A stretch of 64,000 nucleotides of DNA from Octopus vulgaris (taxonomy: Eukaryota). Where the stretch lies: the NCBI GenBank assembly GCA_951406725.2, contig OX597822.1, positions 116,126,001 to 116,190,000 of the forward strand, written 5' to 3'. Positions 7,033-10,435 of the stretch are shown one piece after another (position 1 is the stretch's first letter; each line of letters opens with the position of its first letter). Both the position numbers and the translations under genes were made by a program. Under the pieces are notes generated by a model that was given only the letters and a program-made list of their open reading frames with translations, had not been told where the DNA came from and searched no databases.

Positions 7033-7213
7033 TAGATCGTTAGCCACTACACATTCTTTATTTTCTCTCCTTGTTTCTTTCTGTGTTTCTTTCTGTGGAA
7101 GAGCGTAGGCTCGACACATTAAAAACTTTTTCACTTCCCGAGCGTTAAACTAATACATCTGTTTGTTGTCTACACCACCTGTCTTCATCTTTGTTTTTTT
7201 GTGAATTCTCCCT
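7033..7213 (+). mobile_element. About 180-bp short repeat with degenerate hammerhead-like motif (copy 1)
   Basis: Closely similar to 9793-9977 and to the reverse complement of 59086-59272. Here GAAACGTT is mutated to GACACATT. Confidence 0.8.
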
Positions 7214-8477: not shown

Positions 8478-9472
8478 TCTATATATATAAAACTGTAGTT
8501 GTGTGAGTGTCTGTCCCCTTCGATTTAGATTCCTAACTACTCCCACATTTTGCGGTGCAGTTTAACCAAATTCGGGTATCTTATAGTCGTGATTCAGATC
8601 GAGCCCGTCTGAATATTAGCGCACGTCAACGATGAGTCTACGATTTTAAAAATAATTTAACATCATTTTTTATTCCATTTTAATGCATATTTTTTCGTGT
8701 GTCGATGGCGGCGGAGTTGGCGTCCATGCTCACATCTGCACCTGTGTTGCTTCTCCCCCTTCTTCCCTCCCTCGTGAAGCTGTGGGGAAGGGAGTGTAAG
8801 GAAATCAATGTCGTAATGCGTTGTCAAGGAGACCAGCATTCTTTTAGAACAACGACTTCATGGCTTGAAGTCGCCAAAACAGAAATCGCTAAAAAAGCTG
8901 AAACAGATCCACAAAAACGGCAATTACCGTCACACAGGGCAGGTTTCCTGTGCAAACAATTTGCACAACTGAATGTTTTAGTTGTTGCACAAATCTTTAT
9001 ATATAAAAGTAAGATTGTGTGTCTGTCTCCTACGATTTAGATTCCTAACTCCTCCCACACTTTGAGGTGCAGTGTAACCAAAACCGGGTATCTTATAGTC
9101 GTGATTCATATCGAGCCCTTCTGGGTATTAGTGCGCGTCTACGATTTCAAAAAAAAATTACCATAATTTTTTATTCCATTTTAATGCATTTTTCGCTATT
9201 ATATAAGGGAAGTAACTCTCTAAAAATGTCTACAATGAGTCAACGATTAAAAAAAAAAATTACCATCATTTTTTATTCCATTTTAATGCATTTTTCGCTA
9301 TTATATAAGGGAAGTAACTCTCTAAAAATGTCTACGATGAGTCAACGATTTAAAAAAAAAATTACCATCATTTTTTATTCCATTTTTAATGCATTTTTTG
9401 CTATAACTCACTAAAAATGCTTATATAGTTATTTCCCTTACAAACCCGAGCAATGCCGGGCGATACTGCTAG
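8478..9472 (+). mobile_element. Non-autonomous Helitron, compound (two 5' ends)
   Basis: Starts TC after A(8477) and ends CTAG before T(9473). Subterminal hairpin CCCGAGCAATGCCGGG (9445-9460). A second TC..TATATAAAA start at about 8994 duplicates the first. Internal tandem units of about 100 bp at 9138-9400. Confidence 0.85.
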
Positions 9473-9792: not shown

Positions 9793-9795
<3 letters not shown>

Positions 9796-9977
9796 CTTGC
9801 TAACCACTACACATTCTTTATTTTCTCTCCTTGTTTCTTTCTGTGTCCCTTTCTGTGGAAGAGCATAGGCTCGAAACGTTAAAGACTTTTTCACTTCTCA
9901 AGCGTTATACTAATACATCTGTTTGTTGTCTACTCTACCTGTCTTTGTCTTCTGCTTTTTTGTAAATTCTCCCCCCT
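9793..9977 (+). mobile_element. About 180-bp short repeat with hammerhead-like motif (copy 2), inside the (TA)n tract of a SINE
   Basis: Contains CTTT-CTGTGGA-A-GAGC-ATAG-GCTC-GAAAC-GTT-AAAG and is flanked by TA repeats. Confidence 0.8.
9845..9886 (+). ncRNA. Minimal type-I hammerhead-ribozyme-like motif (core CUGUGGA, A6U variant)
   Basis: Helix I CUUU/AAAG, helix II GAGC/GCUC, GAAAC, palindromic AACGUU minimal helix III, putative cleavage after GUU (9880). Confidence 0.5.
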
Positions 9978-10435
9978 ATATATACAATCGACTTCTTTCA
10001 GTTTCCGCCTACCAAATCCACTCACAAGGCTTTGGTCGACCCAAGGCTATAGTAGAAGATACTTGCCCAAGGTGCCACGCAGTGGGACCGAACATGAAAT
10101 TATGTGGTTAGGAAGCAAGCTACTTACCACACAGCCACTCCTGCGCATATATATGCATATATACTCTGTGTGTGTGTACAGATATACAGATATCATAGAA
10201 GGTGATTCACAGACCAAAAAAAGGTGCTTTGAGCTCAGCTTAAACAAGGGGAATAATCCTGTGCACCTTACTTGGAATTGTTGCTTGCAACTATCAACAA
10301 TGCAGTGAGAGAAACTCAAATGATTAAAACTCTACTGTATGGGTGAAAATACAGAGGACCACATGTAGAAATGTGCATATACACATTTACATAGAGACAC
10401 CCCCCACACACACATATATATCTAAATATATATCC

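What the first reader, a model, noticed from the sequence alone, without database searches (positions are those of the whole stretch)
9845..9886. Family of about 180-bp repeats carrying a minimal hammerhead-ribozyme motif with a non-canonical CUGUGGA core
Seen: three copies (7033-7213 +, 9793-9977 +, 59086-59272 -). Two read CUUU-CUGUGGA-A-GAGC-AUAG-GCUC-GAAAC-GUU-AAAG, which gives helix I, core, helix II, GAAA and a palindromic AACGUU in place of helix III. Helix II is intact in all three copies while its loop varies (GUAG/AUAG). Established: Penelope-like elements and retrozymes carry minimal type-I hammerheads that cleave as dimers via a palindromic helix III. Inference: this is a non-autonomous, Penelope-mobilised retrozyme-like family. 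All three copies have U at the normally invariant A6, so the change is family-level: either a variant catalytic core or a dead ribozyme retained as a recognition signal.
Basis: partly seen in the sequence, partly recalled or inferred. Interest (0 to 1): 0.72.

Follow-up and report, generated by a model that had tools for sequence, protein, structure and literature searches.

The report
Penelope hammerhead with fixed core change
These repeats are cut-short tail ends of a very abundant Penelope-like jumping gene whose small self-cutting RNA motif has one normally fixed letter changed in about 20,000 copies, young intact elements included, which likely weakens cutting and suggests the element copies itself from uncut RNA.

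Summary
The three copies and the motif are real. They are not a retrozyme. They are 5'-truncated 3' ends of a protein-coding Neptune/Nematis-type Penelope-like element: longer copies of the same subfamily run into its endonuclease and RT. The motif fits the published minimal-hammerhead consensus except A6→U. CUGUGGA marks only one subfamily (2,665 exact 25-mers). U6 spans the whole lineage: 17,273 more with N7 = A/C/U, against 78 with CUGAUGA, which scatter like point mutants. A young sister subfamily (4.48-kb unit, 1,082-aa ORF) also has U6. Across six subfamilies only N7 and N17, the two free hammerhead positions, change, and helices covary across related families. Natural U6 copies are predicted to mispair the core shut. 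Of 48 long young insertions, 45 end 113-115 nt past the cut site, 23 read through an upstream motif, and none starts at it. Short copies show no peak there. Best reading: a throttled ribozyme, with insertion from uncut RNA. Cleavage was not tested. The scan's unchecked notes report similar fixed core changes, A6→U included, in other genomes. I found no A6U hammerhead in print.

The parts
9799..9976 (+). Copy 2: 5'-truncated 3' end (pLTR part) of a Neptune/Nematis-type Penelope-like element, CUGUGGA subfamily, between TA/CA microsatellite and TATATA
   Evidence: family link to ORF
9849..9884 (+). Minimal type I hammerhead motif with A6→U: helix I 9849-9852/9881-9884, core 9853-9859, extra A 9860, helix II 9861-9864/9869-9872, G12-A15.1 9873-9876, palindrome 9875-9880, predicted cut 9880/9881
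   Evidence: compared with the min-HHR consensus of PMC4209133 supplement; covariation across families
7033..7212 (+). Copy 1, same subfamily; motif (C3 at 7093) decayed at A14, G16.2 and helix I
59083..59272 (-). Copy 3, same subfamily; motif intact apart from U6 (C3 at 59212)
13170..13315 (+). Copy of a related repeat family whose minimal hammerhead keeps A6 (core CCGAUGA at 13236, U4→C); used as outgroup

Best explanation
The window repeats are 5'-truncated tail ends of an older subfamily of an autonomous Penelope-like retrotransposon, and their minimal hammerhead carries a lineage-wide A6→U change that likely throttles self-cleavage, so that the element's reverse transcriptase would copy mostly uncut RNA. 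Shown: the element (RT, CxxxRCxTC linker, C-terminal GIY-YIG), insertion into (TA)n, a fixed 3' end 113 nt past the predicted cut, read-through of upstream motifs, and U6 in old and young subfamilies. Predicted by folding only: U6 pairs with A15.1 and, with G5-C15.2 and U4-G16.2, closes the core and hides the ACGU palindrome needed for the dimer. Inferred: reverse transcription starts internally downstream of the motif, as shown for Poseidon PAc; a low, probably protein-assisted dimer cleavage persists and keeps the other core letters under selection.
For: Element link. U6 lineage-wide: 2,665 + 17,273 exact 25-mers with U6 against 78 with CUGAUGA; 23 U, 2 A, 1 C among the 26 of 30 copies that reach the core when sampled on a downstream anchor only. 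A6 copies do not cluster on a tree (12 changes for 23 rows, shuffled mean 14.0, 103 of 500 shuffles as low). Across six subfamily majority rows only N7 and N17 vary in 36 motif positions, against 33 of 85 downstream (Fisher p=1.3e-4); N17 is A or U, never G, in these rows. Contig depth in DNA-sized runs peaks on the motif and loose ends flank it. Helix pairs change on both sides across families (4 of 9 pairs, 0 of 500 shuffles). Natural U6 copies: P(G5-C15.2) 0.45-0.98, natural A6 copies 0.01-0.12; a natural pair differing only at position 6 shifts the monomer by 2.4 and the double hammerhead by 4.8 kcal/mol towards the closed form. Uncut template. Literature: natural A6C has low but detectable activity (PMC3088659 section 8); CUGA-turn single mutants have low activity (PMC9901934 passages); PAc hammerhead cuts only with protein and is not needed for insertion in vitro (PMC11167929 parts 1-2).
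Against: No cleavage was measured and no residual cutting is seen: 5' ends of short young copies are no denser at the cut site than at other TA microhomologies, which fits a dead motif equally well. The closed fold is only 0.2-1.2 kcal/mol better than the open one when N7 is A, C or G. Most copies in the subfamily analysis were picked by motif-bearing patterns, which inflates motif conservation; the motif-independent sample shows a smaller gap (mean column identity 0.86 against 0.81 downstream). The covariation alignment has 12 hand-picked related rows, and some helix changes rest on one row. A circular template would also give read-through.
Confidence: 0.5

Rival explanations
1. The motif is catalytically dead and is kept as an RNA structure (closed rod or hammerhead-shaped fold) that the element's protein recognises, or that positions the start of reverse transcription 113 nt downstream.
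For: No 5'-end footprint at the cut site. Closed fold predicted for U6, strongest in the young subfamily. Position 6 mutants are poor catalysts. The hammerhead is dispensable for PAc insertion in vitro.
Against: The only positions that change between subfamilies are N7 and N17, the two that catalysis leaves free (chance 1 in 78 among 13 single-stranded core letters). N7 pairs in the closed rod yet takes all four letters. An active PAc hammerhead also left no RNA ends at its cut site, so the missing footprint is weak evidence.
Confidence: 0.33
2. U6 is a fully functional core variant: the RNA is cut efficiently, re-ligated into a 4.48-kb circle, and copied more than once around, which yields the partial tandems.
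For: The internal junction is the same in 21 of 21 partial tandems, and the two ends of one insertion differ less (mean 2.6) than ends of different insertions (mean 6.1), as one template copied past unit length would give. A circle model is proposed in PMC4209133.
Against: Homogeneous tandem donors (C6 array) or template jumps give the same pattern. No compensating change accompanies U6, and the pairwise scan found no rescue in the CUGA turn except the C3-G8 swap. 0 of 48 long copies start at the cut.
Confidence: 0.08
3. The motif is a neutral relic, or is conserved for a DNA-level reason such as a promoter or splice signal; U6 simply hitch-hiked with a successful master copy.
For: The whole 3' 200 nt is well conserved. 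Naiads spread without canonical hammerheads (PMC8557442 passages).
Against: 2 of 36 motif positions vary against 33 of 85 downstream and 24 of 37 upstream. No spliced joint in four guessed-RNA contig sets (weak).
Confidence: 0.06
4. One reading: a 180-bp non-autonomous retrozyme-like family mobilised by Penelope.
For: Most copies are short: 32 of 40 start within 95 nt of C3; no ORF remnant lies in the window.
Against: Lengths form a continuum up to 914 nt in that sample; longer copies run into EN/RT; the window copies are solo, not head-to-tail units, whereas non-LTR retrozymes are defined by tandem units each with a hammerhead (10.64898/2026.07.22.740005 part 1).
Confidence: 0.03

Closest known systems
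Minimal type I hammerheads (min-HHR) in pLTRs of metazoan Penelope-like elements (Cervera and De la Peña 2014, PMC4209133; parts 1-2 of 4 and passages of supplement file 2 read; file 1 not searchable)
   Same: U-rich leader, short helix I, extra nucleotide after A9, G10.1-C11.1, palindromic 15.2-16.2, no helix III loop, mostly solo truncated copies, two motifs flanking the ORF in full elements.
   Different: Their consensus is CUGANGAH; the core variant they report is the compensatory U3-A8. Here A6→U is fixed with no compensating change; helix II is only 4 bp.
Neptune/Nematis-type EN+ Penelope-like elements (PMC8557442, passages read)
   Same: Single ORF, RT then Cys linker then C-terminal GIY-YIG; partial tandems; inverted truncated copies; (TA)n target.
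   Different: Non-canonical hammerhead core. Neptune versus Nematis was not resolved by a tree.
Poseidon PAc element of Anolis (Frangieh et al. 2024, PMC11167929, parts 1-2 of 4 read)
   Same: Insertion 3' end lies downstream of the hammerhead; templates appear uncut; AT-rich target.
   Different: PAc has an active, protein-assisted hammerhead overlapping the ORF start; here the motif is non-coding, 730 nt before the ATG, with A6→U.
Natural A6C hammerhead of phage Bcep176 (Perreault et al. 2011, PMC3088659, section 8 read)
   Same: Natural change at position 6.
   Different: A single phage sequence with C6 and k_obs under 0.1 per min; here U6 in about 20,000 exact copies of a minimal motif, untested.
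Metazoan non-LTR retrozymes (PMC7229834, search listing only; 10.64898/2026.07.22.740005, part 1 of 5 read)
   Same: Type I hammerhead, Penelope-related.
   Different: Retrozymes are non-coding tandem units; these repeats are dispersed truncations continuous with a coding element.

Membership tests
EN+ Penelope-like element | Single ORF with RT and C-terminal GIY-YIG endonuclease | tested here: met
   1,082-aa ORF in L137; RVT_1 E=1.7e-7 above cut-off; GIY-YIG E=3.3e-4 to 7e-3, just under cut-off. Window subfamily reaches aa 547-961 in long copies.
EN+ Penelope-like element | Partial-tandem pLTR structure, 5' truncation, inverted copies | tested here: met
   23 of 48 long copies are partial tandems, unit 4,482 bp; inverted pairs in L010, L186, L187.
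Neptune/Nematis clades | Cys-rich linker between RT and EN; (TA)n insertion bias | tested here: met
   CxxxRCxTC before GIY-YIG; (TA)n flanks; criterion.
Neptune/Nematis clades | Placement in an RT phylogeny with named references | not tested
   No named reference sequences were fetched.
Minimal type I hammerhead | Helices I and II with compensatory changes | tested here: met
   Across 12 hand-picked rows of related families 4 of 9 pairs change on both sides. Within the U6 lineage the helices are invariant and so uninformative.
Minimal type I hammerhead | Core C3 U4 G5 A6 N7 G8 A9 / G12 A13 A14 | tested here: not met
   A6 is U in the lineage; all other core letters are canonical.
Minimal type I hammerhead | Palindromic 15.1-16.1 and non-G N17 | tested here: met
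   ACGU with N17 = A or U in six subfamily rows.
Minimal type I hammerhead | Self-cleavage after N17 as a dimer | not testable with these tools
   Only contigs, no raw RNA reads, were offered.
Minimal type I hammerhead | Genomic copies starting at the cut site in excess | tested here: inconclusive
   No excess beyond TA microhomology, but an active PAc hammerhead left no such ends either.
Rfam hammerhead families | Match to a covariance model | tested here: not met
   No hammerhead family among 112 matches at E≤5.
Non-LTR retrozyme | Head-to-tail tandem units each with a hammerhead | tested here: not met
   Window copies are solo; tandems found are 4.5-kb coding units. Not searched genome-wide for short-unit arrays.
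Non-LTR retrozyme | Non-coding, discrete unit | tested here: not met
   5' ends spread 1-914 nt upstream; long copies enter the ORF.
Non-LTR retrozyme | Abundant small circular RNA | not testable with these tools
   No raw RNA reads.

The most novel reading that the evidence does not exclude
A6→U is a selected safety catch: it folds the hammerhead's own core onto its dimerisation palindrome, so the ribozyme stays shut until the element's protein opens it. Penelope lineages in unrelated animals would have found this switch independently, making it a natural, protein-gated ribozyme class that standard hammerhead searches miss.
Probability: 0.2. Interest if true: 0.68.

Novelty: new variant of a known kind. 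Interest (0 to 1): 0.4.

Why it matters
What hammerheads do for Penelope-like elements is an open question. Here a young, recently very active element and its older subfamilies spread to about 20,000 exact copies with a change at a position regarded as invariant, while related families in the same genome keep A6. That gives matched natural pairs for testing whether cleavage matters. It also shows that CUGANGA-based searches and Rfam models miss whole lineages. If the motif is dead yet conserved, it points to a non-catalytic role; if it is gated, it is a new way to control a ribozyme.

Tried and rejected
Rfam scan: no hammerhead match. Idea that the 78 CUGAUGA copies are an intact ancestral family: not supported; they are interspersed on the tree, and C6/G6 mutants number 297, with 9 G in the 100 listed. 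A is about three times G there, against equal rates at other T sites (42:40), so a small old A6 subfamily is not excluded. Cut-site peak of 5' ends: it first looked real (about 18 of 100 at -1, read by eye) but equal peaks lie at u7 and u17, and the control shows 11 of 69 at the loop TA with an anchor about half as sensitive; rejected. Idea that U4→C in the sister family stabilises the same closed helix: not predicted (P≤0.06). Fold z-scores against shuffles are weak for the window copies. Metagenome scan for the U6 motif: 3 hits, none with PLE protein or helix I; treated as chance. Sequencing runs: no RNA holder listed; contigs cannot show ends, and no joints appeared in guessed-RNA sets. Sequence look-up in earlier findings: nothing. 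Lünse et al. on small Penelope hammerhead variants is not held, so A6 variants in that paper or its supplements are unchecked.

Full report
Observation. The three copies are at 7033-7212 (+), 9799-9976 (+) and 59083-59272 (-) and are 90-92% identical to copy 2. Rfam reports no hammerhead among 112 matches at E≤5. The genome has 2.8 Gb in 227 contigs. It looks like an octopus from its size and SINE-like repeats; that is recalled, not tested.

How wide is the change. Exact 25-mer counts: CUGUGGA core 2,665, CUGU(A/C/U)GA 17,273, CUGAUGA 78 (A6 with other N7 letters was not counted with this helix), CUG(C/G)UGA 297; reversed controls 0. So CUGUGGA marks one subfamily and U6 marks the lineage. In 30 copies picked only by a downstream anchor, 4 are truncated before the core; of the other 26, 23 have U6, 2 A6, 1 C6. 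On a 43-row tree of the three older clusters with position 6 blanked, 23 A6 rows need 12 changes against a shuffled mean of 14.0 (103 of 500 as low), so they look like scattered point mutants. One poorly supported subclade holds 10 A6 of 13 rows, and A exceeds G about threefold at this site, so a small old A6 subfamily is not excluded.

What the repeat is. Copies share a 3' end followed by (TA)n and differ at the 5' end. In 40 CUGUGGA copies (40 of the first 100 listed, two inverted pairs skipped) the 5' end lies 1-914 nt upstream of C3: 2 under 30 nt, 30 at 30-95, 8 beyond. Long copies run into a GIY-YIG endonuclease preceded by CxxxRCxTC. That domain finds 150 scored matches at 99-100% identity out of 17,614 candidates, with open frames up to 1,214 aa. 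L137 holds a 4,482-bp unit with a 1,082-aa ORF: RVT_1 E=1.7e-7, GIY-YIG E=0.007, under its cut-off. All 30 motifs found in 29 of those 30 loci read CUGUUGA. Long copies found with a CUGUGGA-subfamily query match this protein over parts of aa 547-961, mostly at 63-86%. The window holds no such coding remnant. By the criteria in PMC8557442 (passages) this is a Neptune/Nematis-type element; no reference tree was built. The window repeats are therefore truncated tails of an older subfamily, not a retrozyme as defined in 10.64898/2026.07.22.740005 (part 1).

Is the motif a hammerhead by descent. It matches the min-HHR consensus in the supplement of PMC4209133 in all respects but A6. The genome holds 6,967 matches to a CUGANGA minimal pattern; many belong to a related family with the same helix II stem, one copy of which lies at window 13236 with a CCGAUGA core, and some of these may be CpG decay of CCGA. 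On 12 hand-picked rows from these families, 4 of 9 pairs change on both sides (0 of 500 shuffles, which ignore relatedness; slid controls at most 2). A6 in the relatives makes U6 the likely derived state.

Is it still under selection. 147 of 187 collected copies (young ones thinned) were clustered without the core; a two-row cluster was dropped and A6-picked rows were left out of the majority rows. Across six subfamilies only N7 and N17 vary among 36 motif positions, against 33 of 85 downstream and 24 of 37 upstream (p=1.3e-4 against downstream). These are the two free positions of a hammerhead. The sample was mostly picked by the motif, which inflates the contrast; the motif-independent sample gives 0.86 against 0.81. 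Independent support: in the two largest contig sets, depth on the motif is about two to four times that of its flanks and loose ends start on both sides of it. The GUAG/AUAG loop change is on a CpG and splits 19:19.

What U6 does. ViennaRNA predicts that U6 pairs with A15.1, with G5-C15.2 and U4-G16.2, closing the core over the palindrome: P(G5-C15.2) 0.45-0.98 in five natural U6 copies against 0.01-0.12 in four natural A6 copies. For a natural pair that differs only at position 6, the closed monomer gains 2.4 kcal/mol and the double hammerhead falls 12.1 rather than 7.3 kcal/mol behind the best dimer; with N7 = A, C or G the monomer gain is 0.2-1.2. Published data point the same way: natural A6C is slow but active (PMC3088659 section 8), and CUGA-turn mutants have low activity with no rescue but the C3-G8 swap (PMC9901934 passages).

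What insertions say about cutting. Of 48 long young loci (picked for long open frames; two overlap one array), 45 end 113-115 nt past the predicted cut, 23 read through an upstream motif by about 400-1,470 nt, and none starts at the cut. The template thus includes uncut or re-ligated sites. Among short copies with AT-rich flanks (119 found, 100 listed) I counted by eye about 18 starting at -1, 7 at -2, 18 at u7 and 17 at u17; a script on the first 30 gave 4, 2, 5 and 5. The control upstream (69 found) has 11 at the loop TA; it recovered 3 of the 7 copies at -2, so it is about half as sensitive. There is no step or peak beyond TA microhomology. This is weak evidence on catalysis, because the active PAc hammerhead left no RNA ends at its site and was not needed for insertion in vitro (PMC11167929 parts 1-2). 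The two ends of one insertion are more alike (mean 2.6 differences) than ends of different insertions (6.1) in 21 of 23 tandems that could be paired, which fits a circle, a template jump or homogeneous donors.

RNA. No run on record as RNA was listed and only contigs could be laid; nothing follows about expression or ends.

Verdict. Identity as Penelope-like tail ends: about 0.95. Mechanism: throttled ribozyme 0.5, dead structural signal 0.33, fully active with circles 0.08, neutral or DNA-level 0.06, retrozyme 0.03. Searches for an A6U hammerhead in print found none; an octopus repeat annotation has no mention of hammerheads in its main text (PMC13282606 passages); Lünse et al. could not be read. 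Unchecked notes of this scan report fixed core changes in Penelope hammerheads of other genomes, one of them A6→U; my reading was formed before that look-up and I did not test them. New variant of a known kind; interest 0.4.

Noticed in passing
window 13170-13315 (+); L261-L290, L325-L353: Related abundant repeat family with a minimal hammerhead that keeps A6 and reads CCGAYGA or CUGAYGA; U4→C is a second non-canonical core in this genome. No ORF link was established.
   Followed up: partly
G000 C3:65630393, C5:114877428, C17:12868239, C17:69333272: 4 of 69 short young copies carry a small duplication of the first letters after the cut site, as if RT copied to position -3, slipped back on a GTT match and copied again; it may mark a structural block at the palindrome.
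   Followed up: no
CUGUGGA copies L354-L393: 5' ends pile up 50-85 nt upstream of C3 and drop sharply beyond 95 nt; this could be a transcription start or an RT stall and would explain the 180-200-bp modal size.
   Followed up: partly
L135-L141, L191-L229: The two ends of one partial tandem are more alike than ends of different insertions, with an invariant internal junction; compatible with a circular or jumped template.
   Followed up: partly
G000 C6:117.39-117.41 Mb (L135, L136): Head-to-tail array of at least three units of the young element.
   Followed up: partly
L062 and other CUGUAGA copies: In this subfamily the pyrimidine tract plus UAG inside the core looks like a 3' splice site; no spliced joint was looked for on this subfamily.
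   Followed up: no
window 9982-10146 (+) and families D14/D17, D19: Two SINE-like repeat families with 7-9 copies each; one copy directly follows copy 2. Recalled as octopus SINEs, not tested.
   Followed up: no
window 9137-9404: 102-bp tandem repeat, 2.6 copies, 95% matches.
   Followed up: no
L339 (G000 C1:4515046, -): A further minimal hammerhead family with canonical core and different helices I and II.
   Followed up: partly
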